A stretch of DNA of 64,000 nt, taken from contig DHJC01000023.1 in the NCBI GenBank assembly GCA_002404155.1, forward strand, positions 98,733-162,732, written 5' to 3'. This DNA comes from Chloroflexi bacterium UBA4730 (GTDB lineage Bacteria > Chloroflexota > Limnocylindria > P2-11E). This document shows positions 32,010-49,047 of the stretch, in pieces (within the stretch, counting starts at the first letter, position 1; every line of letters begins with the position of its first letter). The notes under the pieces were generated by a model. It was not told the origin of the DNA, ran no database searches, and was given only the letters and a program-made list of their open reading frames with translations. The position numbers were made by a program, and so were the translations under genes.

Positions 32010-32045
32010 GCCACGGAGCCTACCCGCGGCCGCGCACGGGACCAT

Positions 32046-32075
32046 CAACCGCGATACGTTCAACCGCGATACGTT
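32046..32075. repeat. Perfect 15-bp tandem duplication CAACCGCGATACGTT x2 in the GNAT/dihydropyrimidinase divergent promoter region
   Basis: 32046-32060 and 32061-32075 are identical. The repeat lies 37 bp upstream of the dihydropyrimidinase ATG and 37 bp from the GNAT ATG. Confidence 0.9.
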
Positions 32076-32111
32076 CGCGCTAGCATCGCCGCCGCGACCA
32101 AGGGGAGGGCG

Positions 32112-34027: not shown

Positions 34028-34518
34028 GCGATCTCGCCGTCCCGATCGAATACGACAACTGGGCGACCGAGAAGCTCGCGCAGTTCTGTGCCGCGCTCTC
34101 GCCCGAACAGCGCGCGCTCACGACCCCCGGGACGATGGGCACGATCGAGGCGACGCTCATCCACCTCGTCGGCGCGAAGGAGCGCTACGCGGCGGCCCTC
34201 CAAGGGACGGCCCCGCCGGACGATGCCGTCCGCGAGACGACGACGAAGGACCTCGGCCAGGTCGTCGCTCGGGCGAAGAAGCTGAGCGAGTGGTTCGCCG
34301 GCTTCGCGAAGGGCGACCTCGACCTCGATCGGGTCATCGAGCGTCGCGGGGCCGATGGCACAACGCAGCGCATGCCGATGGGGATCCTGATCGCGCAGTT
34401 CCTGCATCACGGGAACGAGCACCGAGCCCAGCTGGGCTCGATCTTCGGCGCGAACGGCATCGAGCCGCCCCACTACTCCGCGTTCCATTGGGGGCACGAG
34501 CTGGGGAAAATCAGCTAG
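34024..34518 (+). CDS. DinB-family protein, copy 2 (tandem paralog)
   Basis: ATGA overlap with copy 1. [13 protein letters not shown]...[13 protein letters not shown]...[24 protein letters not shown]. Confidence 0.75.
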
Positions 34519-35627
34519 GCGGGTGCCTCTTTCGTCGTGGTCACCGCGAACGCGGGCACCGGCTGATGGAATCCCTTCAGCTCGATCTCGCCGATCGACC
34601 TCGCGTCGACAGCGCCCTCGATGGCCGCATGTACGCGGCTGCTGACGAGGATCTCGCCGGCCTTCGCGGCTGCCGACAGCCGCGACGCCTGGATGACCAC
34701 CATCCCGACCGCGCCGTAATCGAACCGGCCCTCGAAGCCGATGCGGCCGAGCGTCGCGTAGCCGACCGCGATCCCGATGCCGAGCCCGAGGTCGTACCCG
34801 CGCTTCTTCCATCCTGCCTGCAACTCGGCGAAGCGCGTCTGCATCGCGAGCGCCATGCGCGTCGCCTGGAGATGCGGCTCGGGGATCGGCATCGGATCGT
34901 TGAAGAACACCATGATCCCGTCGCCAGCGAAGTGCTCGACCGTGCCCTCGTGATGGAAGATGAGCTCGCCCATCGCCGCGTGATACGCGCGCAGCACCCC
35001 GAGCGCCTCCTCGGGCTCCGCGGTCTCCGAGAACGACGTGAAGCCGCGCAGGTCCGCGAAGACGACGGTGATCTCGCGGCGGTGGCCCGCCAGGAAGTCG
35101 TCGGCCCCCTGCGAGACGACGACGTCGGCGATCTGCGGGGAGAGGAACCGGCGCAGCCGGCCGAGCCGTCCGAGCTCGTCGACCTGATCCCGCACGCGAT
35201 CCTCGAGCGTCCGGTTCCAGTCCGCGAGCTCGGTCTTCTGCCGCTCGATCTCGTCGTGATACGTCTTCACCCGCAGGAGCGAACGCACGCGGGCGAGCAG
35301 CTCAGGCTGGTCGAAGGGCTTCGCGATGAAGTCGTCGGCGCCGGCCTCGATGGCCCTGACCTTCTCGGGGAGGCCGCTCGCGGTGACCATCACGACCGGC
35401 AGGAAGCTCGTCTTTGGATCCGCGCGCAGCCGGCGGCAGACTTCGTAGCCATCGATGCCCGGCAGCATGATGTCCAGGAGGACGAGGTCCGGCTTCTCCT
35501 TCAGGACCTGGAGCAGCGCGTCCTCGCCCGTTCCCGCCGTGACGACCTCGAAGCCGTTCGGCGCCAGCACCGCTTCCATCAGCCGCAGGTTCTGCGGGAC
35601 GTCGTCGACCGCGAGGATTTTGGTCAT
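34515..35627 (-). CDS. Response-regulator receiver domain fused to a class III adenylate/guanylate cyclase
   Basis: REC: [13 protein letters not shown]...[17 protein letters not shown]...PVVMVTA...DDFIAKP. A coiled-coil linker follows. Cyclase: [45 protein letters not shown]. Confidence 0.9.
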
Positions 35628-36004
35628 TGTTTCGCGTCCAGATACGCCCGCACTTGGCCGGGGAAGTTCTTCACCTCGATCGGTTTCGCGATGAAGCCGT
35701 CGAAGCCGGCCTCGTTGAACCGCTCGCGATCGCCGGACATCACCGACGCGGTGAGCGCGACGGTCGGGATGTGCTTCGTCCGCGCGTCTGCGCGGATGCG
35801 CTTCATCGCGACGATGCCGTCGATCCCGGGCAGCTGGATGTCCATCAGGATCAGCGCCGGCAGATGCTCCAGGCTCATCGTGATCGCAGATTCGCCGTCG
35901 GTCGCCTCGACCGTGCGGTAGCCGTGGAACCGCAGCACGTCGCGGGCGAGCTTCAGGTTCTTCTCGTTGTCTTCCACGATGAGGATCAGCTCGTTCGCCA
36001 TCAC
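35624..36004 (-). CDS. Stand-alone response-regulator receiver (CheY-like)
   Basis: [13 protein letters not shown]...[16 protein letters not shown]...[10 protein letters not shown]...[13 protein letters not shown] overlaps are present at both ends. Confidence 0.9.
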
Positions 36005-39000
36005 GTCTCCTTCAATAGGGGCAGCGTGACCGTGAAAGTACTGCCTTTGCCCGGTGCGCTATCGACGCTGATCGTTCCGCCGTGCAGCTCGACCATCCGT
36101 TTCGACAGCGTCAGCCCGAGCCCGGTGCCCTCGCGAGACCGCTCGCCTTGGTGCGTCGCCTGCTGGAATTCCTGGAAGATCCGCTCCTGGTCCTCCGGCG
36201 CGATCCCGATGCCGGTGTCGTGCACGGCCAGGCGGACCTCGCCGTTCTCGCGCGCGGCGCGCAGGGTCACGGTGCCGCCGTCCGGCGTGAACTTCACGGC
36301 GTTCGCGAGGAGGTTCACGACGACCTGCTTCAGCTTGCGCTCGTCCGCGACCACCGTGTCGAGCTCCGGGGCGACCTCGAGCGCGAGTTTGATCCCGTGG
36401 CTCTGCGCGCGCTCCCGCACGAGCGTCACGGCGTTGTTCAGCGCGGCGACGAGCGAGAACGGCGCGGCCTCGAGCTCCATCCGGCCGGCTTCGATCTTGG
36501 ACAGGTCGAGGATGTCGTTGATCAGCGTGAGCAGATGTTGCCCCGAGCTCTTGACGTCTTCGAGGTAGTCGGCCTGCTGCTCGTTCAGCTCGCCGAACAT
36601 CCGCTGCAGGAGGACCTCGGAGAAGCCGATGATCGCGTTCAGCGGCGTACGCAGCTCGTGCGACATGTTCGCCAGGAACTCGGTCTTGTGGCGGTTCGCG
36701 ACCTCGAGCTGCGCCGACTTCTCCTGGATCTCCTTGAACAGCCGGACGTTCTCGATCGCGATCGCGGCCTGCCGAGCGAACGACTCGACGAGTTCGATCT
36801 CGCGCTCCTCGAACGGTCGGACGTCGATCCGGACGAGGATGATGACCCCGAGCGCCACATTGCCGCGCAGCAGCGGCACGCCGAGACCGGTACGCGCCCC
36901 GATGTCGATCATGCCCTTCGAGTCGGCGACGGTCGGATCGGCCCTGATGTCATTCACATGGACAGTTCGACGTTCGCGGTATGCGCGTCCCATGACCGAC
37001 GCGGCCTCTCCGATCCGAGCGGTCGGAGACAACGGAGCCAACGGGGAGCCTGCGGCCTCAGGCCGCTTGGACGCGACGATGCGGCCGGTGCCATCGGCAT
37101 CGATCTGACGGATCCAGCCATACTCGGCTTTGCACAACGCGAGCGATTTCTCGAGGACCATCTCGAACACGCGCTTGAGATCGAACGCGCTCTCGCTCAT
37201 CGCCGCCAGAAGCTCGCTCGTCGCGGTCTGCCGCTCGAGCGCCTCCTGCGTCTTGTTGAAGAGCCGGACGTTCTCCATCGCGATCGCCGCCTGGGTCGCG
37301 AAGGACTCGACGACCTCGATCTCGCGTTGCGAGAACGGCGTTGGCTCGCGACGGCCCAGTCGGATCACGCCGATCGGTTCGCCGTCCTTCATGATCGGAA
37401 CGGCCAGGCGGCTGCGGCTCGCGTGGGCGGACGCGACGGCGCGCATGATCGGATCCTCCAGCACGTCGGGGACGTGAACCGAGCGTCGGCTCTTCACCGC
37501 CCGGGAGATCATGGGATGCTCACTCTCATCCTCGATGTCGACGACTGATCCGAGGGGAAGCGAAGGCCAATCTGCGGAGACCGCGCGCAGCACGTAATCA
37601 GAGCTCGAGCCCTCCCGGGCATAGACGCCGGCGTGATTCGCATGACAGATATCGATCGCCGAGTCGACGATGGCCTGCAGGACAGGATCGATGTCGAACG
37701 CCGAGCCGCTGATCACGCGGAGCACCGAAGACGTCGCCGTCTGCCGCTCGAGCGCCTCCTTCGTCTCGGTGAACAGCCGGACGTTTTCGATCGCGATGAC
37801 GGCCTGGGCCGCGAACGTCTCCAGCGCACCGATCTCGCGCTCGTTGAATGGCCGGGCGTCGGAGCGCCGAAGCGCGATCGTGCCGATGGCCACCCCATCG
37901 CGGAGGAGCGGCGCGACCACGACGGCGTGGTAGCCGCCGGCCCGCGCGTTCTCAGCGCCGCGCGGGAACTCGGCCTCCGTTTGCAGATCCTGCACCGCGA
38001 TGGTCCGCGCCCCGAGGAAGGCACGGGAGCTCATAGAGGTCCCGTCGTTCGGGTAGCGCAGGTCGCTCGGGAGAGGCAACGGTCCGCTTTGCGCGGCCAG
38101 CCCCAGGTGGTCGCCGGCCGGAAGCATGACGATCGCGTTCTCGGCGGCGCAGAACCGCAGCGCGTTCTCGACGATCGCTTCGAGGACCGGCCGGACGTCG
38201 GTGGGTGACGCGGAGATCACTCGCAGGATCTCGCTGATCGCCGTCTGCCGCTCGAGCGACTCCTTCGTCTCGTTGAACAGACGCACGTTCTCGATCGCGA
38301 TCGCGGCTTGATCCGCGAAGGTCTGGACGAGCTCGACCTGGCGGTCCGTGAAAGGCACGGCTTCGCGGCGCCGGAGGACCACGGCACCGAGGGCCCGCTC
38401 CTTGACGAGCAGCGGCGCCGCAAGCAGGGCGCGCTGCCCGCTCCCGCCGTCAGCCAGCGCGAACGCCTTGCTCTGTGGGAACTCGTCGTCGGCCGTGACG
38501 TCCGTCGAGACAATCGTCCGCCGATCCAGGATCGCGCGGCCCGTCACCGACGCGCGGTCAAGCGGCGACGCGCTCGCCATCGAGACCGGACCATGGTGGG
38601 CTGACGGGACCGCCTGGTCGCCGCGAACGAGCAGCACTGAGGCATCCTCGGCGTTGGCGAAACGCGCCGCGCTGGAGGCGATCGCGTCGAGGACCGGCTG
38701 GATGTCGGTCGGGGACGCGGAGATCACCTTCAGGATGTCGCTCACCGCGGTCTGCCGCTCCAGCGATTCCGTTGTCTCGTTGAACAACCGAGCGTTCTCG
38801 ATGGCGATGACGGCTTGATCGGCAAAGCTCTCGACGAGCCTGATCTGCTCCTGCGAGAACGGACGCAGTGCTGTTCGCCACAACGCGATCACGCCGATCG
38901 CGCGGTTGCTGCTGATGAGCGGGACCGCGAGTAGCACGCGGAAGCCGCCGAGGCGTTTGGCGTCCGCGTAGGTGTACGTCGGATCGGCGTCGACGTCGGG

Positions 39001-41442
39001 GATATGGATCGTGCGCCGCTCGGCGAACGCCCGTCCGGTAGCCGATCCGGTGTGGTCCGTCCTGATCGGATGCTCGCGTTGCCACTCGCGCATGACATCG
39101 GCTCGCTCACCGAACGAAGCGCGCATCGCAAGGAGATCGCCGTCGACCTGGTACACGAAGCCGTTCTCAGCCTCAGTGAGCTGGCTGGCGTACGCGATGA
39201 CGGTGTGGAGCACGCCGGCGAGATCGAAGGCGGTCCCGCTGATCGCCTTCATGACCTCGCTGGTCGCGGTCTGACGCTCGAGGGAATCCGTCGTCTCGTT
39301 GAATAGCCGGACGTTCTCGATTGCGATCACGGCTTGATCGGCGAATGTCTGCACAAGCTCGATCTGCCGCAGCGAGAAAGGACGCACCTCGTTGCGGGTC
39401 AGGACGAAGACGCCGATGGGGAAGCCGTCCCGCATCAGTGGGACGCCGAGCATCGTCCGGTATCCACCCAGTCGCTGGAGGTCCTTTGCCTCGTACTCTT
39501 GGACCGTCTCGCGTTCGATCGCGACCCGCCCGATGAGCGTCGTGCGCCCGGCGACGCGCGGCGTGTCGTACGCGACGTGCTCGTACTCTTCGTTCTTCGG
39601 CCCGTAGAACGCCGCCGTGCGGTACGCCGATCCATCCCAGCGGTGGATCGATCCGCGCTCGGCCTCGCACAGCCGCGCGGCGTACTCGAGGACGGTATCG
39701 AGCACCGGTTGGAGGTCCTGGCCCGAACGGCTGATCACATTAAGGATTTCGGCGGTCGCAGTCTGCCGCTCGAGCGCCTCCTTCGTCTCATTGAACAGGC
39801 GAACGTTCTCGATCGCGATGACCGCCTGGTTCGCGAACGTCTCGACAAGCGCGATCTGCTGGGCGGTGAATGGGCCCGGCGCCTTGCGCCGCAGCTGGAT
39901 CGTTCCGATCACTTCCTCCCGCCGCCGCAACGGGGTGACGATCGCCGCCCTAAACGGCAGCGTTGCGGCCCGACCTTGCCCGAGCCCATCAGGGAAGTCC
40001 GCGATGGTGGCAGGGTCTTGCAGATCGGGGAGGTGGATCGTGACCCGGTCGAGGACGGCCCGGCCCTGGACTCGGTCACGCGTCACCTTGGCATCAAACT
40101 CGGTCTCGTCGATCGGACCAACGTGCGCCCACGCGGAGATCCGGCCTTCGTGGAACAGATGGAGCGCGGCATCCTCGGCACCGCAGTAGCGGACCGCATT
40201 CGTTGCGATCGCGTCGAGCACCGGCTGCACGTCCGTCGGCGACTCCGAGATCGCGCGGAGGATCTCGGCGGTGGCGGTCTGCCGCTCGAGCGCCTCCTTC
40301 GTCTCGTTGAACAGACGCACGTTCTCGATGGCGATGACCGCTTGGGACGCGAACGTCTCGACCAGCTCCACCTGCTGGGGAGTGAACGCGCCGGCCTGGC
40401 GTCGCCGGAGCTGGATGGCGCCGATGGCTGCCCCGTTCTTGATCAGCGGGGCGGCGAGGAAACCGCGGTAGCCCTGTCGCCGGGCGATCTCCTTGCCCTC
40501 GCGGAACTGGTCATCGTTGAGCGACTCCATGTCCGCGATGTTGAACGTCCGCGCCTCCCTGATCGCCCGGGTCGTCACCGAGAGCGATTCGATCGAGTAC
40601 GCGCGGTACGCCCACTCGATCGGCCCATGGTGCGCGATGAGGCTGACCGATCCGTCCTTGATGAGGGCAACGCCCGCATCCTCCACTGCGGTGAAGTCGG
40701 CGGCGCTCTTGGCGATCGTCTCGAGGACCGGTTGGACGTCGGTCGGTGAGCTTGAGATCACCCGCAGGATCTCGCTGATGGCCGTCTGCCGCTCCAGCGC
40801 CTCCGTTGTCTCGGTGAAGAGACGGGCGTTCTCCATCGCGACCGCGAGCTGGTCGACGAAGGTCTCCATGAGCGCGATCGTCGGCTTGTCGAAGCCGCCG
40901 GGATCGTCGCGCGACATCGTGAGCACGCCGATGGACTCACCGTCTCGGAGGATCGGCACCGACAGCCGGGTCCGGCGCTTCTCGGCATCCGGAAGCTTGG
41001 GCTCCGCGAACTTCGTGTCGGCGTAGTGGAAGCGCTGACCGCTGAGGGCCGCCCGGCCCCACAGCGATCCGGGCTCCGCCTCCATCCGCATGCCGCGTTC
41101 GAGGCCGGTCGAGCCGTACGTCGCGCCGACGACCCACGCGTCCGCCTCGCGGCGGATGAAGCTGCCATTGTCCGCGCCAGCCAGCCTCTTGGAAGCCTTC
41201 ACGATCATGTCGGCGACCTGATCGAGGCCGACCGCGGGATCGGCGAGGGATCGCATGACCTGGCTGACGACGGCGAGGTGATCGGCCGCGCCCGCGGCAG
41301 GGCCCGGCGCCGCAGTGCGCTTCGGCGCGGCAGCCTTTTTCGGCGCCGCCCGTACCGTCTTCTCCTTTGCTCCCGCCCTCACCCTGCGCAGTATCGGCGG
41401 GTCCTCGGCCCCTGGGCTAGGGCCGTCCGTTACCTGGGACAC
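36001..41442 (-). CDS. Cytoplasmic sensor histidine kinase with nine tandem GAF domains + HisKA + HATPase_c (1813 aa)
   Basis: Nine GAF modules of about 170 aa are joined by near-identical linkers, (I/M)EN(V/A)RLF(N/T)ET(K/T)E(A/S)LERQTA(T/I)(A/S)E(I/V)L. The H-box is [21 protein letters not shown], the N-box is [12 protein letters not shown], and the G-boxes are DTGIGI and [13 protein letters not shown]. No TM segment was seen. Confidence 0.9.
36734..40843 (-). repeat. Intragenic periodic repeat: nine copies of a 35-65-bp conserved segment spaced about 510 bp apart (GAF-GAF linker helices)
   Basis: On the plus strand, GTCTGCCGCTCGAGCGCCTCCTTCGTCTCGTTGAACAGACGCACGTTCTCGATCGCGAT-like segments occur near 36734, 37220, 37730, 38235, 38745, 39255, 39755, 40275 and 40781. 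Confidence 0.8.
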
Positions 41443-41505: not shown

Positions 41506-43638
41506 ATGGACATCTGGCAGACCCTGCGTGACCGGCTGGACTACGCATCGTTCGTTCCGACGCCCGTCTCGGACGTCGAGCGCGCCGATCTGCGCCGCCG
41601 CGACGGCAATCCGTACACGATGCTGAAGAACCCGACCGGCGACCGCGGCGCGGGTCGCTACCTGCGTCTGGACCCCGCCGACGTCGAGCTGTTCGAGCTC
41701 ATGGATGGCCGGCGCTCGATCCAGGAGATCCTCGTGGCGCAGCTCGAGCGCACCGGCGTGTTCGCGCTCGATCGGCTGGCGCGGCTCACTGCCGCGCTCC
41801 GGGCCAATGGCTTCTTCGGTGAGGAGCCGCCGGTCCTGTACGAGAAGCTGGCCGCGCGCAAGGCGATGCGCGATCCGATCGTGCGCGCATCGCTGTTCCT
41901 CCGCCGGCTCGTCCTCTGGGACATCGCACGGTGGTCGAACGCGGACCGCGTCGTCGATCGCGTGTACCGCCTCGGCGGTTGGCTCGCGTTCACGCGCATC
42001 GGCGCGTCGCTCCTGGTCGGCTTCGGTCTTTACGGGCTATGGCTGTGGTTCCAAGAGGTCCGTGATCCGAAGCTGCAGCTGGTCACGATCGACGGCTCGT
42101 ACGCGCGCGGGATCCTGGCCCTCATCGTCCTGCAGGTGATCTCGATCTCGGTGCACGAAGCGGGTCACGCGCTCGCGATCCGCCACTACAAGCGCCACGT
42201 CCGGCGGTTCGGCGTCGCGATGTACTACCTCTTCCCGTGCTTCTACGTCGACTCGACCGACATGACCCTTGGCTCACGTGGGCAGCGCATCGTCGTCTCG
42301 CTCGCCGGGCCGTTCGCGGGCCTCACTACCGCGGCCGCCTGTGCGGTGGCGGCCGCGGCCCTGCCCGGTACGCTCGCCGGCGAGCTCGCGTTCAAGGCCG
42401 CGAGCCTGTTCGTCTTCCAGTTCATCTTCAACCTGCTCCCGATCCTCGAGCTCGACGGGTACCACGTGCTCGTCGACGCGGTCGATGCGCCATTCCTCCG
42501 GCAGCGCGCGATGTGGTTCGTGCGCAGCGCCGCGCTCCGGAAGCTGCGTGCGCGCGCCCGGTGGACGCGTGAGGAGGCCGGGCTCGCGCTGTTCGGCGTG
42601 GCCGCGATCGTCACGTCCCTGCTGACGCTCGTCATGTCGATCCTGCTGTGGCAGTCGCGCATCGCCAGAGCGGGGCGCGAGCTCCTCGCGGGCGGTCCGG
42701 CCGGTCTCGCCGTGCTCGCCCTCCTCGTCCTCGTGTTCGTTGGACCGCTCGCGGTCGCGGTGATCGCGCGGCTCATCGGCATCGTGAGAACGAGCGTCAC
42801 GCTTGCGACGGCGCGCAGCCGCGCTGCGACCGCGCGCGAACAGGGGGCGCGCACGGCGATGCTCGGGCGGGTCCGATTCCTCGCCGGCCTCCCGGGCCCG
42901 ACACTCGCCGCGCTCGCGTCACACCTGCGCGTCGAGCGGGTCGACGCGGGCCACACCGTCATCACGGCCGGCAGCGTCGGCGATCGCTTTTATCTCGTGC
43001 GGTCCGGACGGCTCCAGGCGGTCGCGCCCGACGGCGCCGTCCTCGGCGAGATCGCCCCCGGCGAAGGCTTCGGCGAGCTCGCGCTCATCGACCGGACGCC
43101 GCGCACCGCGACGGTCCACGCGCTCGAGGCGGCCGAGCTTTGGTCGCTCGACAGCTCGCATTTCCAGCGCTGGGTCCGCGACCGCTTCGAGATCGCAGCG
43201 CGGATCCGCGCCGATCAGGGGCAGCGTCAGGCGCTCGCGACGTTGCCATTCTTCCGCGACCTCGAGGGCCGCGAGCTCGACCGGATCGCCGCCCGGGTGC
43301 AGACCCGCCGGTACGAAGGTGGCGAGGTCGTCATCCAGGCGGGCGAGACCGGTGGCGGCTACTACCTTATCCGCGAGGGCACCGCCGACGTCACCCTTCC
43401 TGATGGCCGCTACGTCCGGACCCTCGGACCGGGGGACGGCTTCGGCGAGCTGGCCCTCATCTTCGGCGTGCCCCGGACCGCGACCGTAACGGCCAAGGGC
43501 CCGCTCGCCGTCGGGGTCCTCGGCCGGCCGGACTTCGCGGCGCTGGTCGCGGCGTCAGGTGAATCGATGCGTGATTTCCGCGCGCGGACGGGCCATTATG
43601 TCGGTGCCGGCCTCGGTGGGGCCGTTGGGGGAGCGTGA
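41506..43638 (+). CDS. Site-2 (M50) intramembrane metalloprotease with an N-terminal PqqD/RRE-like cytoplasmic domain and two C-terminal cyclic-nucleotide-binding domains
   Basis: ATG at 41506 with a [21 protein letters not shown] lies in a TM helix, and the second S2P motif is [15 protein letters not shown], with about 6-7 TM segments. The N-domain is [39 protein letters not shown]. The CNB cassettes are [21 protein letters not shown] and [21 protein letters not shown]. Confidence 0.85.
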
Positions 43639-43854
43639 GTGGACTGCTGGATCTGCGAGCGGCCGGCGCTCGCCGCGTGCCGGTTCTGCGGTCGGGGGGC
43701 GTGCCGGGAGCACGCGAAGAGCCACCCGTTCGTTCTAGACGTGTATCGCGGCGAAAAGCATCGTTCGCTGCGCGCCCTCGTCGTGGAAGACGCGATCCAT
43801 TGCGGGGTCTGCCGGCCCAGGAGCGAGCCGGTGGATATGCCCGAGCTGGAATAG
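43639..43854 (+). CDS. Small Cys-rich zinc-ribbon protein (DUF2180-like pattern)
   Basis: GTG follows the protease TGA immediately. The 71-aa protein VDCWICERPALAACRFCGRGACREHAKSH...IHCGVCRP has the pattern CxxC-x7-CxxCGxGxCxxH...CxxC and no TM segment. Confidence 0.6.
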   Translation: MDCWICERPALAACRFCGRGACREHAKSHPFVLDVYRGEKHRSLRALVVEDAIHCGVCRPRSEPVDMPELE

Positions 43855-43986
43855 GGGAGGCGACGCCCGGGACGGTCTGAAGGTTAGGTAGATCACGTAT
43901 CAGGCGTGCCGGCGTGTATCGAGCGGGGTCCGCGTTCGGCGCACATTTCACGCAATTCCACAAGGAAAGAAAGAAGGAGCAAGGCG

Positions 43987-44976
43987 ATGGCAAGCAAGAA
44001 CCTAGGGGCAGTGATCCAGCGAGCGATCAGCGACGGGGCGTTCCGTCGCCAGCTTCAGTCCGACCCTGCCGCGGCGCTCCGCGGCTTCAACCTCACGGCG
44101 GACGAGGTCGCTGCGATCCGCAGCGGTGACTCGAGCAAGCTCATGTCGCTCGGTGTCGACCAGCGGATGAGCAAGGCGTTCTCACTCGGTGGCGGGATCG
44201 GCGGCGGCGCGGCACGCACGTCGGTCTCCGACCTGAGCGGCGGCGCCACGGCGAGCACGATCGCGAACGACCCGACAGCCGGCGCCCGCGAAGGCATCGT
44301 CGGCGACCCGACCTCCGGATCGCGCGAAGCGATCACGACCGGAAACGTCGGCGGCACCCGCGCGGTCAACGACTCGGCGCCGTTCGATGGCGGCCGGGCT
44401 AGCTTCGCCGACCCGACCACAAGCGGCACCCGTGCGATCCATGACAGCGAGCCGGCTGATCTCCGTTCAGCGGCGAGCACCGGCGGCTTCTCCGGCACCC
44501 GCGCGGTCAACGACAGCGAGCCGTTCGCTGGCAACGCCGCGATCAACGACAACATGGCAGCGGCGAACGCCGGCCGCGGCGGATCGCTCACCGGCGACAT
44601 GTCCGACGGCAGCGCCCGGGCCATCCACGACGTAGCTCCGTTCGGCACAACTGGATCCTCGGCGATCGAGGACCCGAACTCACCGGAGTACGCGGCGGCT
44701 AACGACGGTGGGACCCTCGCCAGCCGCATGGCCGACGCAGGCACGGCCGACGCGGTCCGCGCGATCCACGACGTCGCACCGTTCGAGGGCAACGTCAACG
44801 CGGCCGCATCGAGCGGCGGCGAGTTCCTCGGCGGCGACGCCCGCCTCGACCCGGGCACCGACAGCTCGCACGGCTTCGTCCCGAGCGACTCGGCGGACGT
44901 GCAGCGCGAGCTGCTCGATCCAGGCGACGACCACGGCAACGCTCTCGGCAACGTCGGCGGCGGCCACCCCAGCTAG
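43987..44976 (+). CDS. Repeat protein with an NHLP/Os1348-like leader-type N-terminal domain (hypothetical)
   Basis: ATG at 43987 with a GAAGGAG SD (43973-43979). The N-terminus is MASKNLGAVIQRAISDGAFRRQLQSDPAAALRGFNLTADEVAAIRSGD, followed by the Gly run SLGGGIGGGA. At least 5 repeats follow: GTRAVNDSAPF, GTRAIHDSEPA, GTRAVNDSEPF, SARAIHDVAPF, AVRAIHDVAPF. The upstream 27 codons of the track ORF were discarded. Confidence 0.7.
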   Translation: MASKNLGAVIQRAISDGAFRRQLQSDPAAALRGFNLTADEVAAIRSGDSSKLMSLGVDQRMSKAFSLGGGIGGGAARTSVSDLSGGATASTIANDPTAGAREGIVGDPTSGSREAITTGNVGGTRAVNDSAPFDGGRASFADPTTSGTRAIHDSEPADLRSAASTGGFSGTRAVNDSEPFAGNAAINDNMAAANAGRGGSLTGDMSDGSARAIHDVAPFGTTGSSAIEDPNSPEYAAANDGGTLASRMADAGTADAVRAIHDVAPFEGNVNAAASSGGEFLGGDARLDPGTDSSHGFVPSDSADVQRELLDPGDDHGNALGNVGGGHPS

Positions 44977-45036: not shown

Positions 45037-45747
45037 CTAGTACCGGATCTCGCTCTGGAGGAGCGCGCGGTCCTTCAGCTGGATGTGGCGCCGGCCGATC
45101 TTGATCCCGCCGCGGTTCTCCAGGTCCGCGAGCACCCGATTCACCGAGACCCGCGTGGCCCCGACGAAGCTCGCGAGATCCTCCTGCGTCAGGTCGACCT
45201 GGTTGCCCCCCGAGGCCTCCGCGAGATCGAGGAGGCACTTCGCCACCCGACCCGGCAGGTCGAGGAACACGAGGTCCTCGACGTGCCCGGTGCTGTGACG
45301 GACCGTCTTCACCAAGAGGGCGAGCATCCGGCGCATCGCATCGGGGTTGCGTTCGAGCGTGGTGAGGAACTCCTGGCGCGCGAGCGCGAGGGTGTGGGTC
45401 TCGGTGAGCGCCGTGACCGTGGCCGACCGCGGACCTTCGTCGAAGAGCGCAAGTTCGCCGAAGACGTCGCCACCGCGCTCGAGCGCGATCACTACTTCGT
45501 GGCCCTGCTCGTCGGGCACGGATACCTTCACCGTGCCGGAAGCGATCAGGAACACCTGGCCTGCCGCATCGTCACGGTGGAAGACGACTTCGTCGCGAGC
45601 GAACTGACGCGGACGCATCTTCGAGGCGAGAGCGAGCCGGTCGTCGGCGCTCAGGCAGGCGAAGAGCGGGCTCTCCGCGAGGAAATCGGCGATCGCCGTG
45701 GCGTCCACGTCGGCTGAATAGTGCCGCCCGGCGTCAAGCGGCATCAC
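45037..45747 (-). CDS. Crp/Fnr-family transcriptional regulator (cNMP-binding + HTH)
   Basis: The CNB domain is LFACLSADDRLALASKM...GDVFGELALFDEGPRSATVTA. The C-terminal HTH is LTQEDLASFVGATRVSVNRVLADLENRG. Confidence 0.9.
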   Translation of the reverse strand: MMPLDAGRHYSADVDATAIADFLAESPLFACLSADDRLALASKMRPRQFARDEVVFHRDDAAGQVFLIASGTVKVSVPDEQGHEVVIALERGGDVFGELALFDEGPRSATVTALTETHTLALARQEFLTTLERNPDAMRRMLALLVKTVRHSTGHVEDLVFLDLPGRVAKCLLDLAEASGGNQVDLTQEDLASFVGATRVSVNRVLADLENRGGIKIGRRHIQLKDRALLQSEIRY

Positions 45748-45779: not shown

Positions 45780-46721
45780 CTAGCTGAGGCCCCCGACGAG
45801 CTCCAGGAAGCGTGGCTTCACCTCGGTCATCGTCCGCTCGATCGTCTCGCGGTCGAACGGCGGCGACATCCCGAACAGGAACCCCTTCACTCCGACCTTG
45901 TGGTATTCGACGAGCTTTTTCGCGATGTCGTCGGGCTTCCCGAGCAGCCCCGGCCGGTTCGGCGCCTCGACCTTGTTCCGCGCGGCGATCTCGCGCATCC
46001 GTTTGTCGACCGTGTTCAGGTCGTCGCGCACCAGGACCGACCCGCCGGCCGTCGGCGCGATCTCGTTGTAGTTACGGCCGACGTCGTCGCAATGCCTCTT
46101 CAGGACGCCGAGCTTGTGCTTGATCACGTCCGCGGTCCCGAAGCCGTGCCACCAGTCCGCGTAGTGCGCCGTGATCTTGAGCGTCACCTGCTCACCGCCG
46201 CCGCCGATCAGGACCGGCAGGCGCTTCTGGATCGGGCGGGTGCCGAGCGTCGCGCGCTCCAGCTGGTAGTACTTGCCCTGGTACGTCACTTTTCCGGTGT
46301 CGAGCAGGCCGCGGATGATGCGCGTCGCCTCGCGCAGCTTCGCGAGCCGGATCGCCGGCGTGTCGAAGGCGATGCCGTACATCTTGTGCTCGTGCTCGTT
46401 CCACGCGGCACCGATCCCGAGGACCGCGCGACCGTTCGTGATGTTGTCGAGCGTGGCGGCCATGTTCGCGAGCACGGCGGGGTGGCGGTAGGTGTTTCCC
46501 GTGACCAGCATCCCGATCAGCGGCCTCTTCGTGATCGCGCCGAAGGCCGCGAGCACCTGCCAGCCCTCGAGGTTCGGTCCGGTGACGTCGCCCATGAGCG
46601 GGACGAAGTGATCCCAGGTCATGAGGACATCCCAGCCTGCCTGCTCGGCAAGAAGCGCGGCCTCGCGCATCTCATCCCAGGTCGTGTACTGCGGGTGCAG
46701 CTGCAGGCCGAAGAAGGTCAT
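45780..46721 (-). CDS. LLM-class F420-dependent oxidoreductase
   Basis: MTFFGLQLHPQYTTWDEMREAALLAEQAGWDVLMTWDHFVP...LVTGNTYRHPAVLANMAATLDNITNGRAVLGIGAAWNEHEH...LIGGGGEQ. Confidence 0.85.
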   Translation of the reverse strand: MTFFGLQLHPQYTTWDEMREAALLAEQAGWDVLMTWDHFVPLMGDVTGPNLEGWQVLAAFGAITKRPLIGMLVTGNTYRHPAVLANMAATLDNITNGRAVLGIGAAWNEHEHKMYGIAFDTPAIRLAKLREATRIIRGLLDTGKVTYQGKYYQLERATLGTRPIQKRLPVLIGGGGEQVTLKITAHYADWWHGFGTADVIKHKLGVLKRHCDDVGRNYNEIAPTAGGSVLVRDDLNTVDKRMREIAARNKVEAPNRPGLLGKPDDIAKKLVEYHKVGVKGFLFGMSPPFDRETIERTMTEVKPRFLELVGGLS

Positions 46722-46753
46722 TGCCCGCCTCCGAGCGTATAGTCCGAACGCCG

Positions 46754-48097
46754 ATGGCGCTCACCCAGGATCGCACCGACGTCGCGAAAGTCCTCGCGGA
46801 CACGCAGAAGCACGTCCTTGTCAACTGGTCCGCGCAGGGGAATATTTCGCCCCTCGTGATCACTGGGGCGGACGGCGTCTGGCTCCATTCCGGTGATCGC
46901 CGGATCCTCGACTTCAGCTCCGAGCTCGTGAATTCGAACCTCGGCCACGGCCATCCGCGCGTGGTACGCGCGATCCAGGAGCAGGCCGCGATCCTCAACT
47001 ACGTGACTCCCGCCTTCACCACCGAGGCCCAGGCGACGCTCGCCCGGAAGCTCGCGGACGTCGCACCGGGGGACCTGACGAAGACGATCTTCACGACCGG
47101 CGGCACCGAGGCCAACGAGAACGCGATCAAGCTCGCGCGCCTGTACACCGGCCGCCACAAGATCCTCACCCAGTGGCGGAGCTTCCACGGGCAGACCCAG
47201 GGCGCGATGACCCTCGGTGGGGATAACCGCCGCTGGGCGAACGAGCCGGGCATCACCGGTGTCGTGCACTTCCTCAATCCCGATCCGTATCGCTCGGTCT
47301 TCGGCAGCGATGCCCGCAAGGCGCTCGCCCACGTCGAAGAGGTCATCTGGTACGAGGGGCCGCAGTACATCGCGGCGATCCTGCTCGAGCCGATCGTCGG
47401 CACGTCGGGGCTGCTCGTCCCGCCCGACGGATTCCTGCAAGGCCTGCGGACCCTCTGCGACACGTACGGCATCGTCCTCGTGTTCGACGAGGTCATGACC
47501 GGCTTCGGGCGAACCGGGAAGTGGTTCGCGTCCGAGCACTGGAACACCGTGCCCGACATCATGACCTTCGCGAAGGGCGTGAACTCCGGCTATGTCCCGC
47601 TCGGCGGCGCGATCGTGAACGAGAAGATCGCGAAGCACTTCGACGACAACGTGTACTGGGGCGGCCTCACGTATAGCGGCCACGCCCTTGCCTGCGCGGC
47701 CGGCGTGGCGACGATCGAGGCGTACGAGAGCGAAGACCTCATCGGCAACTCCGCACGGATGGGTGAGCTGCTCGGGCGCCAGCTGAACGCGCTCGCGGCA
47801 AAGCACCCGTCCATCGGCGACGTCCGCGGCCGTGGCCTCTTCTGGGGCATCGAGCTCGTGAAGGACCGCGGCACGAAGGAGATGCTCGAGCAGTGGAACG
47901 GGCCGTCGAGCGCGCTCGCCAACGCCCTCAAGGGCGAGCTCATGAAGCGGAACGTGTACGTGTTCTGCCGCTGGAACATGTTGTTCGTCGCCCCGCCGCT
48001 CATCGTCGACGAGGAAGAGCTGCGCATCGGTGTCAAGGCGATCGACGAGGCGCTCGAGGTCGCGGATCGCTTCGCGGCGACCGGCAAGCTCGCATAG
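46754..48097 (+). CDS. Class III (omega) aminotransferase
   Basis: ATG at 46754. TTGGTEANENAIKLAR, VFDEVMTGFGRTG and TFAKGVNSGYVPLGG (PLP lysine). Confidence 0.9.
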   Translation: MALTQDRTDVAKVLADTQKHVLVNWSAQGNISPLVITGADGVWLHSGDRRILDFSSELVNSNLGHGHPRVVRAIQEQAAILNYVTPAFTTEAQATLARKLADVAPGDLTKTIFTTGGTEANENAIKLARLYTGRHKILTQWRSFHGQTQGAMTLGGDNRRWANEPGITGVVHFLNPDPYRSVFGSDARKALAHVEEVIWYEGPQYIAAILLEPIVGTSGLLVPPDGFLQGLRTLCDTYGIVLVFDEVMTGFGRTGKWFASEHWNTVPDIMTFAKGVNSGYVPLGGAIVNEKIAKHFDDNVYWGGLTYSGHALACAAGVATIEAYESEDLIGNSARMGELLGRQLNALAAKHPSIGDVRGRGLFWGIELVKDRGTKEMLEQWNGPSSALANALKGELMKRNVYVFCRWNMLFVAPPLIVDEEELRIGVKAIDEALEVADRFAATGKLA

Positions 48098-49047
48098 CCC
48101 AGCGTCCTCGCCCGCACTGGGGCATCAACCTCCCGGCACAGCACACGACGTGGCCGGAGCTGCGCGACACCGCCGCGCTCGTCGACCGGCTTGGCTTCGA
48201 CTCGCTGTTCACCTGGGATCACTTCGTCCCGCTCGACGGCGATCCGAAGGGTCCGATGTTCGAGGCCTGGGAGCTGCTCGCGGCGTGGGGCGCGCTCACC
48301 TCGCGGGTGCGGCTCGGGACGCTCGTCACCGGCAACACGTATCGCCACCCGCCAGTGCTCGCGAAGATGGTCACGACCCTCGACCACGTGACCAACGGGC
48401 GCGCCATCCTCGGGCTCGGCGCGGCGTGGCACGAGGGCGAGCACGCGATGTACGGACTGCGGTTCCCATCCACCGGCGAGCGCCTCGCCCGGATGGACGA
48501 GGCTGCGCGGGTGCTGCGCCTCTTGCTCGACGACCCGGTCGCCAGCTTCGAGGGCAAGTATTACCAGCTCAAGGACGCGATCGCCGAGCCGAAGCCCGTA
48601 CAGAAACGGCTGCCCATCCTCATCGGAGGCGGCGGTGAGCAGAAGACGCTCCGGACGGTCGCGAAGTACGCGGACTACTGGCACGGCCACGGGACGCCCG
48701 AGGTCATCAAGCACAAGCTCGAGGTCCTCGCGGCCCATTGCGAAGCCGTGGGCCGTGACATCGCGGAGATCACGCCGCTCACGACCATCCGGCCGGACCT
48801 TGTCCTCCGCGACAACGTCCGCGACGTCGAGGCGCAGCTCGAGCGCGTGCGTGCACGGTCGAAGCGCGCCGACCCGCTGCCGGTGAACCCGATCCACACC
48901 GTCGATGCGCTGGTGGACCGCTGCGCCGCGCTCTGGCAGGCCGGCGCACGAGGATTCATCCTGTACTTCATGGCGCCGTTCGATTACGAGACGATCGAAC
49001 GCATCGCCACTGAGGTGCGGCCGAAGGTCGAAGAGGCGATCGCATGA
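48094..49047 (+). CDS. LLM-class F420-dependent oxidoreductase (paralog of 45780-46721); start codon uncertain
   Basis: WGINLPAQHTTWPELRDTAALVDRLGFDSLFTWDHFVP...LVTGNTYRHPPVLAKMVTTLDHVTNGRAILGLGAAWHEGEH...LIGGGGEQ. There is no in-frame ATG/GTG/TTG between the upstream stop and the conserved N-terminus. The coordinate 48094 is the ATA of an ATAG junction. Confidence 0.7.
   Translation: MAQRPRPHWGINLPAQHTTWPELRDTAALVDRLGFDSLFTWDHFVPLDGDPKGPMFEAWELLAAWGALTSRVRLGTLVTGNTYRHPPVLAKMVTTLDHVTNGRAILGLGAAWHEGEHAMYGLRFPSTGERLARMDEAARVLRLLLDDPVASFEGKYYQLKDAIAEPKPVQKRLPILIGGGGEQKTLRTVAKYADYWHGHGTPEVIKHKLEVLAAHCEAVGRDIAEITPLTTIRPDLVLRDNVRDVEAQLERVRARSKRADPLPVNPIHTVDALVDRCAALWQAGARGFILYFMAPFDYETIERIATEVRPKVEEAIA

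What the first reader, a model, noticed from the sequence alone, without database searches (positions are those of the whole stretch)
43987..44976. 329-aa protein: RiPP-leader-like N-terminus followed by a novel RA(I/V)xDxxPF repeat array
The N-terminal 48 aa (GAVIQRAISDGAFRRQLQSDPAAALRGFNLTADEVAAIRSGD) match my memory of NHLP-clan/Os1348-type leader domains. What follows is not a short Cys/Ser/Thr-rich core. It is about 280 aa of G/A/S/D/T-rich sequence with five clear and about four degenerate repeats (GTRAVNDSAPF, GTRAIHDSEPA, GTRAVNDSEPF, SARAIHDVAPF, AVRAIHDVAPF, plus GAREGIVGD and GSREAITTG). The DNA repeats are diverged, so this is not a recent slippage product. I recognise no TM segment and no signal peptide. 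One possibility is a multi-core precursor cut into repeated peptides.
Basis: partly seen in the sequence, partly recalled or inferred. Interest (0 to 1): 0.7.

Follow-up and report, generated by a model that had tools for sequence, protein, structure and literature searches.

The report
Leader-domain protein with disordered repeat tail
A soil Chloroflexota gene encodes a protein with a conserved, folded "RiPP-leader-like" head and a long, fast-evolving, acidic, disordered repeat tail, and it nearly always sits beside a membrane protease with cyclic-nucleotide sensors, so it is probably that protease's signal-controlled substrate rather than a proven multi-peptide antibiotic precursor.

Summary
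The ORF at 43987-44976 (+) encodes 329 aa. Residues 5-62 match NCBIfam NF038399 (Os1348 family NHLP clan) above its cutoff. Five RA(I/V)xDxxP motifs are far beyond chance.

AlphaFold2 predicts six helices for residues 1-67. The remaining 260 residues are predicted disordered. They are acidic (net -21), have no Lys, Cys or Trp, and evolve fast (dN/dS 0.45-1.0 against 0.06-0.23 for the head).

Several hundred homologues exist, almost all in Limnocylindria/Chloroflexota metagenome-assembled genomes (MAGs). They keep the head and carry lineage-specific repeat tails of 100-470 aa. Motif copy number runs from 0 to 8.

The gene belongs to a tightly conserved module:
- an M50 site-2 protease with an RRE-like domain and two cNMP-binding domains
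- a 71-aa Cys-rich protein
- this protein, in 1-3 copies
- a Crp-family regulator
- next to these, a 9-GAF histidine kinase, a response regulator and a response-regulator-fused cyclase

Dehalococcoidia carry the same protease/Cys-rich pair with five head-only paralogues. Actinomycetota lack the head protein.

My best reading is a cyclic-nucleotide-gated protease with this protein as its leader-domain substrate. The multi-core RiPP idea is not excluded, but no tailoring enzyme, exporter or family-wide core motif supports it. I class it as a new variant of a known kind, of moderate to high interest.

The parts
43987..44976 (+). Gene for the 329-aa protein (stop codon included): Os1348/LigA-like head plus disordered repeat tail
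43987..44190 (+). N-terminal helical domain (aa 1-68), ending in the most conserved stretch LGVDQRMSKAF
   Evidence: NF038399 61.8 bits against a cutoff of 40. AlphaFold2 predicts six helices at pLDDT 80-87. PDB Os1348 6lk7 matches at E=1.3e-5. Foldseek finds SonA, Os1348 and LigA-type domains only at weak whole-model E-values (0.1-1). dN/dS 0.06-0.23.
44191..44973 (+). Acidic disordered tail (aa 69-329): net charge -21, no Lys, Cys or Trp, a mosaic of repeat types, and a sub-clade-conserved C-terminal block FVPSDSADVQRELLD...GNVGGGHPS
   Evidence: pLDDT 37-55 with essentially no predicted secondary structure (one 3-residue helix). Composition. dN/dS 0.45-1.0. Repeat-unit types.
44353..44388 (+). 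Motif copy 1, GTRAVNDSAPFD
44425..44460 (+). Motif copy 2, GTRAIHDSEPAD
44494..44529 (+). Motif copy 3, GTRAVNDSEPFA
44524..44551 (+). Degenerate motif copy FAGNAAINDN, which lacks the Arg
   Evidence: Family D3, 79% identical to the reference copy
44611..44646 (+). Motif copy 4, SARAIHDVAPFG
44752..44787 (+). Motif copy 5, AVRAIHDVAPFE
44268..44334 (+). Separate 12-aa tandem duplication, DPTAGAREGIVG / DPTSGSREAITT.
   Evidence: Family D6, 77% identity
41506..43638 (+). 710-aa membrane metalloprotease: RRE-like beta3-alpha3 domain (aa ~25-100), M50/S2P core (HEAGH at 217-221, [10 protein letters not shown] at 309-318), and two cNMP-binding domains with intact GELAL...RTAT cassettes. The 870-aa ORF starting at 41026 overextends the true start.
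43639..43854 (+). 71-aa Cys/His-rich protein. Its GTG start directly follows the protease stop codon. It co-occurs with the M50-cNMP gene in Chloroflexota and Actinomycetota.
43893..43909 (.). Conserved inverted repeat CACG-N7-CGTG in the 132-bp spacer upstream of the gene. A second conserved block, GGCGCA.ATT, lies at 43938-43947. Candidate operator/promoter.
   Evidence: Alignment of 25 orthologous upstream regions. Not tested statistically.
45037..45747 (-). Crp/Fnr-family regulator (cNMP-binding domain plus HTH), convergent with the gene
   Evidence: Present just downstream in 35 of 37 loci.
36001..41442 (-). 1813-aa histidine kinase with nine GAF domains, divergent from the protease gene
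35624..36004 (-). Stand-alone response regulator
34515..35627 (-). Response regulator fused to a class III nucleotide cyclase (PF00211)

Best explanation
The protein is the dedicated partner, most likely the substrate, of a cyclic-nucleotide-gated, RRE-fused intramembrane M50 protease. It is the long-tailed Limnocylindria form of an Os1348/LigA-like 'leader-domain' protein.

**Proposed sequence of events (all inferred).**
1. The 9-GAF histidine kinase phosphorylates the response-regulator-fused cyclase, which makes cAMP or cGMP.
2. The nucleotide acts on the adjacent Crp-family regulator, which would control a conserved promoter/operator upstream of the gene.
3. The nucleotide also acts on the two cNMP-binding domains of the protease.
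4. The protease's N-terminal RRE-like domain docks the conserved helical head.
5. The protease cuts, probably near the invariant ...DQRMSKAF / x(L/I)GG junction.
6. This frees, or destroys, the acidic disordered tail.

The tail's short repeated motifs (here TRA(I/V)(N/H)D(S/V)(A/E)PF) would be multivalent functional units whose number and sequence change quickly between lineages.

**Shown:** domain identities, gene linkage, intact catalytic and nucleotide-binding motifs, predicted disorder, and the conservation pattern.

**Inferred:** binding, cleavage, nucleotide gating, and what the released tail does.
For: **Head.** It is a member of the Os1348 NHLP-clan family. It is related to the solved Os1348 structure and to the structured leader domain of the borosin precursor SonA. 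It is under strong purifying selection (dN/dS 0.06-0.23).

**Linkage from the protein side (80 metagenome loci).**
- The Cys-rich ORF lies just upstream in 52 of 55 loci.
- The M50 gene lies upstream in 35 of 36.
- Crp lies downstream in 35 of 37.

**Linkage from the protease side.** In GTDB Chloroflexota loci (almost all Limnocylindria) that hold enough downstream DNA, one to three copies follow the protease.

**Linkage survives rearrangement.**
- In L070 a second copy sits directly after the kinase / response regulator / cyclase operon.
- In Dehalococcoidia L154/L155 the protease and Cys-rich genes, in a different order and orientation, are accompanied by five head-only paralogues. These are 40% identical over 45 aa (E=2e-11), and NF038399 is their only hit.

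**Protease.**
- Its best NCBIfam matches are the daptide leader peptidase (134.6 bits, profile positions 23-371) and the YydH/LiaK epipeptide protease.
- The daptide enzyme is an RRE-fused S2P that removes a leader (bioRxiv 10.1101/2023.03.08.531785). M50 proteases EpeP and TglG also process RiPP peptides (PMC10885120).
- The model shows beta3-alpha3 at aa 25-100.
- PqqD/RRE matches are weak but convergent.
- HExxH and NxxPxxxxDG are invariant.
- The tandem cNMP-binding domains resemble PKA-R/PKG.

**Signalling genes.** The cyclase and Crp are adjacent in the window and in orthologous loci.

**Promoter.** The upstream region of the gene has conserved elements, which are kept even where the gene is not preceded by the Cys-rich gene.
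Against: - No biochemical data exist for any member. All homologues come from MAGs or metagenomes.
- S2P proteases usually cut transmembrane substrates, and this protein has no hydrophobic segment.
- RREs usually bind linear leader segments, not folded domains.
- The RRE assignment is below the curated thresholds.
- M50-cNMP proteins at 32-34% identity in Actinomycetota and Dormiibacterota keep the Cys-rich and Crp genes but have no Os1348-like gene. Two Limnocylindria loci (L028, L029) also lack it. So the protease has some role that does not need this protein.
- Most of the linkage evidence comes from one class, where inherited synteny inflates the counts.
- The Dehalococcoidia protease has HDxxH instead of HExxH.
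Confidence: 0.45

Rival explanations
1. Multi-core RiPP precursor. The head is a leader, and each repeat unit is a core or recognition unit. The M50 protease or another protease excises many short peptides such as ...RAIHDVAPF..., which may be modified and exported.
For: - The pattern of a conserved leader with a hypervariable C-terminal region is typical of NHLP/Nif11-type precursors.
- There are 1-3 divergent paralogous precursor genes per locus.
- The RRE-S2P architecture is shared with daptide biosynthesis (bioRxiv 10.1101/2023.03.08.531785).
- Copy number varies between close relatives.
- The peptide motif is kept despite synonymous divergence.
- EpeP-type M50 enzymes are thought both to cleave and to export (PMC10885120).
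Against: - No tailoring enzyme is conserved within about 10 kb: no YcaO, rSAM, LanB/M, ATP-grasp, methyltransferase or P450.
- No C39/ABC exporter is conserved there either.
- The downstream aminotransferase fits a generic family, not the daptide one.
- The motif is confined to one sub-clade, and no tail motif is found in more than 30 of 140 family representatives.
- Units are of at least four different types and lengths with low-complexity G/A/S/T/D spacers.
- The tail evolves almost neutrally overall.
- Tails are essentially Cys-free (11 of 53,809 residues).
- Head-only relatives with 5-7 residues after the domain use the same module.
Confidence: 0.15
2. It is co-regulated but not proteolysed. 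The protein is a stand-alone intrinsically disordered effector, for example a hydrophilin-like stress protectant, a polyanionic scaffold or a DNA/protein mimic. Its head only mediates dimerisation or docking. It sits in the locus because it belongs to the Crp/cAMP regulon.
For: - Os1348 crystallises as a stable dimer (PMC7726476).
- The tail is predicted fully disordered, hydrophilic and acidic.
- The gene has its own conserved upstream element and a convergent Crp gene.
- The protease module exists without this protein in Actinomycetota and in L028/L029.
- Actinomycetota loci have a small basic repeat ORF in the same position.
Against: - The head family is otherwise known only from RiPP-type contexts, and its nearest solved relatives are precursor leader domains (PMC12353581).
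- Linkage to the protease and Cys-rich pair persists across two Chloroflexota classes with rearranged gene order.
- The protease carries an RRE-like substrate-docking domain.
Confidence: 0.27
3. Cyclic-nucleotide anti-phage defence module (Pycsar-like). The cyclase makes a signal, the cNMP-binding membrane protease is the effector, and the repeat protein is an accessory or decoy.
For: PADLOC matches of the cNMP-binding domains to PycTIR effectors and of the cyclase to PycC.
Against: - The matches cover only the generic cNMP-binding and class III cyclase domains.
- The cyclase is fused to a receiver domain under a 9-GAF kinase, which is ordinary two-component signalling.
- In Actinomycetota the module lies in a conserved chromosomal position among ribosomal and SRP genes.
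- The window shows no mobile-element or defence-island context.
Confidence: 0.04
4. The tail is non-functional low-complexity sequence, or a mis-called frame, attached to a real small Os1348-like gene.
For: Tail dN/dS approaches 1 in the more distant pairs. Long antisense ORFs are common at 70% GC.
Against: - The reading frame stays open for 100-470 codons in several hundred homologues.
- Motifs are kept through synonymous change.
- Close pairs give a tail dN/dS of about 0.45-0.5.
- The composition bias is strong and consistent, with Lys and Cys avoided.
- The C-terminal block is conserved within the sub-clade.
Confidence: 0.03

Closest known systems
Os1348 of Pseudomonas sp. Os17 (NCBIfam NF038399; PDB 6lk7; PMC7726476)
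   Same: The N-terminal helical domain is homologous (61.8 bits, above cutoff; PDB match E=1.3e-5). Both are predicted as six helices. Both are encoded beside an HExxH metalloprotease.
   Different: Os1348 is 85 aa, with about 20 residues after the domain. Its cluster has a GNAT, a soluble HExxH protein and a SagB-type dehydrogenase. Here the tail is 261 aa of disordered repeats, and the partners are a membrane M50-cNMP protease, a Cys-rich protein and Crp. There is no GNAT or SagB.
Daptide system (precursor MpaA plus RRE-fused site-2 protease MpaP; NF041824)
   Same: The protease has the same N-terminal RRE-like domain plus M50 core layout, and NF041824 is its best NCBIfam match. There can be several precursor genes per locus.
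   Different: The score is 134.6 bits against a cutoff of 300. The daptide precursor signature is absent (ELExMEAP motif, invariant C-terminal Thr). The daptide oxidoreductase, aminotransferase and methyltransferase set is absent (daptide_amino 247 bits against a cutoff of 450). The protease here carries two extra cNMP-binding domains.
SonA/SonM split borosins and LigA-like leader domains (PDB 7ltc, 8t1s, 9ch7; ECOD 'LigA-like domain' X-group, PMC12353581)
   Same: It is a small helical LigA-like domain at the N-terminus of a ribosomal precursor, acting as a structured docking domain. Foldseek gives TM about 0.75 (normalised to the target) and rmsd about 1.8 Å. These matches come only at weak whole-model E-values (0.1-1).
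   Different: Sequence similarity is marginal (E 0.03-0.2). No N-methyltransferase is encoded nearby. The SonA core is short.
NHLP/Nif11 leader precursors (proteusins, prochlorosins; TIGR03793) and their cNMP-domain transport partner TIGR03896
   Same: They belong to the same clan. They show the same pattern of conserved leader and hypervariable C-terminal part. Cyclic-nucleotide-binding proteins are associated with the processing or export machinery.
   Different: TIGR03793 scores only 13 bits against a cutoff of 50.9. There is no C39-peptidase ABC exporter and no radical SAM or LanM enzymes. A Gly-Gly after the domain is common but not invariant.
Pfam PF14407 Frankia_peptide (graspetide-type precursors; PMC8939145)
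   Same: A weak match to the same N-terminal domain (32.6 bits).
   Different: The match is below the gathering score of 48. No ATP-grasp ligase is found in the window or in orthologous loci.

Membership tests
Os1348 family NHLP clan protein (NF038399) | HMM score at or above the curated cutoff of 40 bits over the ~63-residue domain | tested here: met
   61.8 bits, aa 5-62, profile positions 2-63 of 63. NCBI already gives this name to homologues P0049, P0050 and P0105.
Os1348 family NHLP clan protein (NF038399) | All-helical fold like PDB 6lk7 | tested here: met
   AlphaFold2 predicts six helices for aa 4-67 at pLDDT 80-87. phmmer against 6lk7 gives E=1.3e-5. Foldseek lists 6lk7 among the top hits with weak E-values, because the query model is mostly disordered.
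Os1348-type gene cluster (PMC7726476) | Neighbouring GNAT, HEXXH protein and SagB-type dehydrogenase | tested here: not met
   The neighbours are M50-cNMP, a 71-aa Cys-rich protein and Crp. No GNAT or SagB appears in the gene tables of L001-L003.
Pfam PF14407 Frankia_peptide / graspetide precursor | Score at or above the gathering threshold of 48 bits | tested here: not met
   32.6 bits.
Pfam PF14407 Frankia_peptide / graspetide precursor | ATP-grasp ligase encoded nearby | tested here: not met
   None within ±10 kb in L001-L003.
NHLP leader peptide family (TIGR03793) | HMM score at or above 50.9 bits | tested here: not met
   13 bits.
NHLP leader peptide family (TIGR03793) | Double-glycine cleavage site with a C39-peptidase ABC exporter in the cluster | tested here: not met
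   x(L/I)GG follows the domain in about half of the diverse members but is not invariant. No ABC/C39 gene is in the loci.
Daptide RiPP | RRE-fused intramembrane M50 protease at equivalog level (NF041824, at or above 300 bits) | tested here: not met
   134.6 bits. The layout is the same but the score is below the cutoff.
Daptide RiPP | [quoted passage not shown] | tested here: not met
   The protein ends ...GGGHPS. Family C-termini vary (S, P, Q, E, Y, A).
Daptide RiPP | Daptide aminotransferase, oxidoreductase and methyltransferase | tested here: not met
   The neighbouring aminotransferase fits NF004718 (588 bits). daptide_amino scores 247 bits against a cutoff of 450.
Multi-core RiPP precursor (cyanobactin/graspetide/dikaritin style) | Repeated core units flanked by conserved recognition or cleavage sequences, with a cognate tailoring enzyme | tested here: inconclusive
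   Repeats with a conserved 12-aa motif exist. No tailoring enzyme is present, and the motif is not shared across the family. Cleavage cannot be tested here.
RRE (PqqD-like) domain in the protease | Pfam PF05402 at or above 23.4 bits, or a beta3-alpha3 winged-helix fold | tested here: inconclusive
   15.8-19.3 bits (E=0.0014 on the N-terminal 130 aa), with 3 of 11 diverse members matching. PDB PqqD 5sxy at E=0.23 and PaaA 5ff5 at E=0.61. The AlphaFold2 model has three strands plus three helices at aa 25-100, pLDDT about 64-85.
Site-2 protease (Peptidase M50) | HExxH and NxxPxxxxDG motifs in membrane helices, and a Pfam PF02163 match | tested here: met
   PF02163 41.8 bits against a gathering score of 27.2. 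H217, E218, H221, N309, P312, D317 and G318 are invariant in 13 sequences.
Pycsar defence system | Dedicated PycC cyclase with a cNMP-binding effector in a defence context | tested here: not met
   The matches are at domain level only. The cyclase is receiver-fused under a histidine kinase.

The most novel reading that the evidence does not exclude
Soil Chloroflexota use a cyclic-nucleotide-gated, RRE-guided intramembrane protease to process, and perhaps export, a hypervariable family of giant disordered repeat polypeptides. These carry a folded RiPP-type leader domain. This would be either a new class of unmodified 'macro-core' or multi-core ribosomal products, or a new regulated-proteolysis signalling pathway in which second-messenger binding directly switches an S2P on.
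Probability: 0.3. Interest if true: 0.8.

Novelty: new variant of a known kind. Interest (0 to 1): 0.6.

Why it matters
- **Leader-domain logic.** RiPP-type leader domains of the NHLP/LigA-like clan are known on short precursors next to tailoring enzymes. Here the same domain heads proteins of about 100-540 aa with disordered, rapidly changing repeat tails, and no tailoring enzyme is present. If the head really targets these tails to the protease, leader-domain logic reaches well beyond small peptides.
- **Protease regulation.** A site-2 protease fused to two cyclic-nucleotide-binding domains, sitting beside its own kinase-controlled cyclase and a Crp regulator, would be a direct link between a second messenger and intramembrane proteolysis. 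I found no paper describing this.
- **Ecology.** The module is widespread in Limnocylindria, which the source sample names suggest are mostly soil bacteria and which are known here only from MAGs and metagenomes. It may therefore be an ecologically relevant signalling or secretion trait.
- **Genome mining.** This is a family that precursor-centred tools would flag as RiPP, and NCBI and one MAG annotation already do so. That label may be misleading.

Tried and rejected
- **Downstream genes as tailoring enzymes.** The F420-dependent LLM oxidoreductases, class III aminotransferase, amidohydrolase and proline-racemase-like genes fit generic metabolic families. The daptide aminotransferase model is far below cutoff. 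In L003 two kinase genes separate this block from the module. Rejected.
- **A tail motif shared by the whole family.** Enumerating 4-of-6 patterns in 140 tails gave no pattern in more than 30 tails. Rejected.
- **Known families in the tail.** Pfam, NCBIfam, PADLOC and PDB sequence searches found nothing in the tail.
- **Tandem Repeats Finder.** No array found. The repeats are too diverged and too irregular.
- **Os1348-like genes beside distant M50-cNMP proteases.** In Actinomycetota and Dormiibacterota none was found. The position holds small basic repeat ORFs instead.
- **Foldseek on the protease model.** It returned only cNMP-binding-domain proteins, so it could not confirm the RRE or the S2P core.
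- **phmmer of the protease N-terminus against the PDB.** No hits as a single sequence. The profile gave only weak PqqD and PaaA hits.
- **Defence (Pycsar) reading.** Considered and set aside.
- **Literature searches.** Nothing found for this module, for M50 with cNMP domains, or for Limnocylindria RiPPs.
Full report
**1. The observation**

The ORF at 43987-44976 (+) translates to 329 aa. The stop-to-stop ORF begins at the GTG at 43906. The ATG at 43987 is the real start. It has a GAAGGAG ribosome-binding site, and in more than 100 homologues the conserved QRAISD sits at the same distance from the start.

Codon-position GC is that of a real gene: tail 0.69/0.63/0.88. The 298-aa antisense ORF has an atypical pattern.

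The motif RA[IV]xDxxP occurs five times, with R at aa 125, 149, 172, 211 and 258. Only 11 of 20,000 shuffles of the tail gave even one match, and none gave more than one.

The DNA copies are 68-87% identical and irregularly spaced. Tandem Repeats Finder finds no array. The motif codons differ synonymously between copies. So the repeats are old and are kept at the peptide level.

- GAREGIVGD and GSREAITTG are a separate 12-aa duplication.
- A true degenerate copy is FAGNAAINDN.

There is no hydrophobic segment (maximum Kyte-Doolittle value over 19 residues is 0.48).

**2. What the two halves are**

*Head.*
- Residues 5-62 match NCBIfam NF038399, 'Os1348 family NHLP clan protein', at 61.8 bits against a cutoff of 40.
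- Pfam Frankia_peptide (32.6 bits) and NHLP TIGR03793 (13 bits) are below threshold.
- The closest solved structure by sequence is Os1348 itself (6lk7, E=1.3e-5). The LigA-domain leader of the borosin precursor SonA follows.
- AlphaFold2, run on a 53-sequence alignment, gives six helices for aa 4-67 at pLDDT 80-87.
- Foldseek's best matches to the model are LigA-type domains, Os1348 and SonA, with TM about 0.75 normalised to the target. Whole-model E-values are weak (0.1-1).
- ECOD curators have already grouped Frankia_peptide, Nif11, LigA and the nitrile hydratase alpha chain into one 'LigA-like' group (PMC12353581).

*Tail.*
- AlphaFold2 gives essentially no secondary structure for aa 70-329 (one 3-residue helix), at pLDDT 37-55.
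- The 261-aa tail has 35 Asp+Glu against 14 Arg, and no Lys, Cys or Trp.

**3. The family**

A word-indexed search found at least 354 homologues, all metagenomic or from Chloroflexota/Limnocylindria MAGs. One is a 100% identical MAG protein annotated 'hypothetical'.

An exhaustive phmmer search with the head alone, against 1.84 billion cluster representatives, found 388 clusters at E≤1e-3 and 198 at E≤1e-10. In nearly all of the best 150, the domain sits at the N-terminus of a protein of about 100-540 aa; a few carry an upstream extension.

The head is nearly invariant. The tails are unalignable between lineages and carry lineage-specific repeats, among them:
- TRAVNDSEPF (this sub-clade)
- SYRAINDPDNTG
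- VSRIRDLDTPDT
- SDAIEDQSHAF
- VRAGDDWKF
- AIHDDPNGFLAANA
- EPRDVAPVWIGD
- QSPDAxDRN
- HLRMIEQDLDTG

Other family-wide features:
- No 4-of-6 pattern occurs in more than 30 of 140 tails.
- Across 246 tails, Cys is 11 of 53,809 residues. Lys is 0.23%, against 3.0% in neighbouring genes.
- Within this sub-clade the motif count runs from 0 to 8 (5 here). Proteins about 90% identical over aligned columns have 8, 7 or 4 copies, mostly by gain or loss of a 23-aa unit SGTRAIHDSGPTDLRSAASTGDF.
- Against eight close orthologues, dN/dS is 0.06-0.23 for the head and 0.45-1.0 for the tail. Repeat misalignment inflates the tail value somewhat.

**4. The neighbourhood**

*The protease.* The gene upstream (41506-43638, 710 aa) has these features:
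- a Peptidase_M50 core with invariant HExxH and NxxPxxxxDG
- two cNMP-binding domains with intact phosphate-binding cassettes, which resemble the tandem domains of PKA-R/PKG
- an N-terminal beta3-alpha3 domain at aa 25-100
- weak but convergent similarity of that domain to PqqD/RRE domains: Pfam 19.3 bits at E=0.0014, PDB PqqD at E=0.23 and PaaA at E=0.61

Its best NCBIfam matches are the daptide leader peptidase (134.6 bits, below cutoff) and the YydH/LiaK epipeptide protease. The daptide enzyme is described as an RRE-dependent intramembrane peptidase (bioRxiv 10.1101/2023.03.08.531785). Other M50 enzymes (EpeP, TglG) also act on RiPP peptides (PMC10885120).

*The Cys-rich ORF.* Directly after the protease stop codon, a GTG opens a 71-aa Cys/His-rich ORF (43639-43854).

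*Regulator and signalling genes.*
- Convergent with our gene lies a Crp-family regulator (45037-45747).
- Divergent from the protease lie a 9-GAF histidine kinase, a response regulator and a receiver-fused class III cyclase.

**5. Is the linkage meaningful?**

*From the protein side* (80 metagenome loci):
- the Cys-rich ORF is just upstream in 52 of 55 loci
- the protease is upstream in 35 of 36
- Crp is downstream in 35 of 37

*From the protease side* (66 GTDB loci): in Chloroflexota loci (almost all labelled Limnocylindria) holding enough downstream DNA, one to three copies follow the protease. L028 and L029 are exceptions.

These counts come largely from one class, so three rearranged cases carry more weight:
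- In L070, a second copy follows the kinase / response regulator / cyclase operon directly.
- In Dehalococcoidia L154/L155, the protease (on the other strand, and with HDxxH) and the Cys-rich gene are accompanied by five 65-66-aa head-only paralogues. These are 40% identical to our head over 45 aa (E=2e-11), and NF038399 is their only family hit.
- In Actinomycetota and Dormiibacterota, M50-cNMP proteins at 32-34% identity keep the Cys-rich gene and Crp. They have no Os1348-like gene. A small basic repeat ORF often occupies the same position.

So the core module is the protease, the Cys-rich protein and Crp. The Os1348-like head protein is a Chloroflexota partner of that module. The long repeat tail has so far been seen almost only in Limnocylindria-type loci.

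**6. Mechanism**

The best-supported reading is that the head is a docking domain for the RRE-like domain of the protease. Proteolysis and transcription would both answer to the cyclic nucleotide made by the neighbouring kinase-controlled cyclase.

The most conserved stretch of the whole protein...LGVDQRMSKAF followed often by x(L/I)GG, lies at the head/tail junction. It is the obvious candidate cleavage region.

What the freed acidic tail does is open. The pattern of conserved short motifs within a rapidly changing disordered chain fits multivalent short linear motifs.

Binding, cleavage and gating are all inferred.

**7. Rivals**

- *Multi-core RiPP.* This keeps some support: conserved leader with variable 'core', several paralogues per locus, and a daptide-like protease. 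It lacks tailoring enzymes, an exporter, a family-wide unit and any Cys chemistry. Head-only relatives use the same module.
- *Co-regulation only.* A stand-alone disordered effector in the Crp regulon is the strongest rival, because the protease module exists without this protein.
- *Pycsar-like defence.* This rests only on generic domain matches.
- *Spurious tail.* This is contradicted by the open frame in hundreds of homologues and by motif conservation through synonymous change.

**8. Comparison and novelty**

The protein is a member of the Os1348 NHLP-clan family by the curated test. It is not a member of the Os1348-type cluster, nor of the graspetide, NHLP, daptide or borosin systems. Defining features of each were tested and not met, or the required partner enzyme is absent from the locus.

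I found no paper that describes the long-tailed proteins, an M50 protease with cNMP-binding domains, or this module.

I rate it a new variant of a known kind: a leader-domain precursor with an RRE-fused S2P, plus an unprecedented tail and an unprecedented regulatory fusion.

I set interest at 0.6. The features are real, widespread and unexplained. The mechanism is inferred from context only, and every member comes from an uncultured organism.

Noticed in passing
window 43639-43854 (+): A 71-aa ORF with eight Cys/His positions (CWxC...CRFCGRGxCxxH...HCGxC). It starts at a GTG immediately after the protease stop codon. It is conserved with M50-cNMP genes in Limnocylindria, Dehalococcoidia, Actinomycetota and Dormiibacterota. 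Pfam matches are all below threshold (C5HCH, B-box, DUF2180). It may be the universal partner or substrate of the protease.
   Followed up: partly
window 43893-43909 and 43938-43947: There are conserved non-coding elements in the 132-bp spacer upstream of the repeat-protein gene: the inverted repeat CACG-N7-CGTG and the block GGCGCA.ATT. They are also kept in loci where the gene follows a terminator-like hairpin instead of the Cys-rich gene. This may be the operator for the adjacent Crp-family regulator. It is not a classical TGTGA-N6-TCACA box.
   Followed up: partly
L053 12315-12602, L054 (same frame), L056 12100-12354, L057 4531-4713, L058 12389-12514, L152 8385-8513, L153 8388-8516: In Actinomycetota, the position taken here by the acidic repeat protein holds a small basic ORF. 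It has a shared start (ME(K/M)(P)KKI(S/T)P...) and simple basic repeats (TRQ, ARS, KKT/KRT). It is another low-complexity repeat product next to the same protease module, with the opposite charge.
   Followed up: partly
L154 244-3408 and L155 (Dehalococcoidia MAG): Five tandem 65-66-aa head-only Os1348-like paralogues end in short basic or hydrophobic tails (AIKFR, VAKVRP, GVKIRM, AMRWK, RKRFH). They are interleaved with predicted membrane or secreted proteins and lie near kinase- and O-methyltransferase-like genes. The M50-cNMP homologue there has HDACH in place of HEAGH.
   Followed up: partly
L028 8870-9985 and L029: In two Limnocylindria genomes the protease and the Cys-rich gene are followed directly by Crp, with no Os1348-like gene between them. 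So the repeat protein can be lost, or is encoded elsewhere in those genomes.
   Followed up: partly
window 36001-41442 (-): A very large histidine kinase (1813 aa) built from nine GAF domains separated by a recurring linker (...[21 protein letters not shown](S/A)EIL...). Orthologues range from 1153 to more than 2787 aa, so the number of GAF units also varies between relatives.
   Followed up: no
window 45780-52293: A conserved block downstream of Crp. It holds three F420-dependent LLM oxidoreductases, a class III aminotransferase (NF004718), a Xaa-Pro-dipeptidase-like amidohydrolase and a proline-racemase/hydroxyproline-dehydratase homologue. It looks like proline or hydroxyproline-peptide catabolism and is unrelated to the finding.
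   Followed up: partly
window 30945-33365 (-): An 806-aa ORF with no NCBIfam match and only a weak partial GNAT match. In L002 the corresponding position holds an AAA_16/cyclase protein. I did not check whether this ORF is a real gene.
   Followed up: no
family-wide, last 5-7 residues of the tails: The tails are otherwise unalignable, yet many end in a loosely similar sequence [P/G]-[D/E/N/Q]-[I/L/F]-x-x. Examples are GPEIQP, GPNISE, GDGNLQQ, PQISA and DIHPTDY. This window's protein ends GGGHPS. It may be a C-terminal recognition or degradation signal. It was not tested statistically.
   Followed up: no
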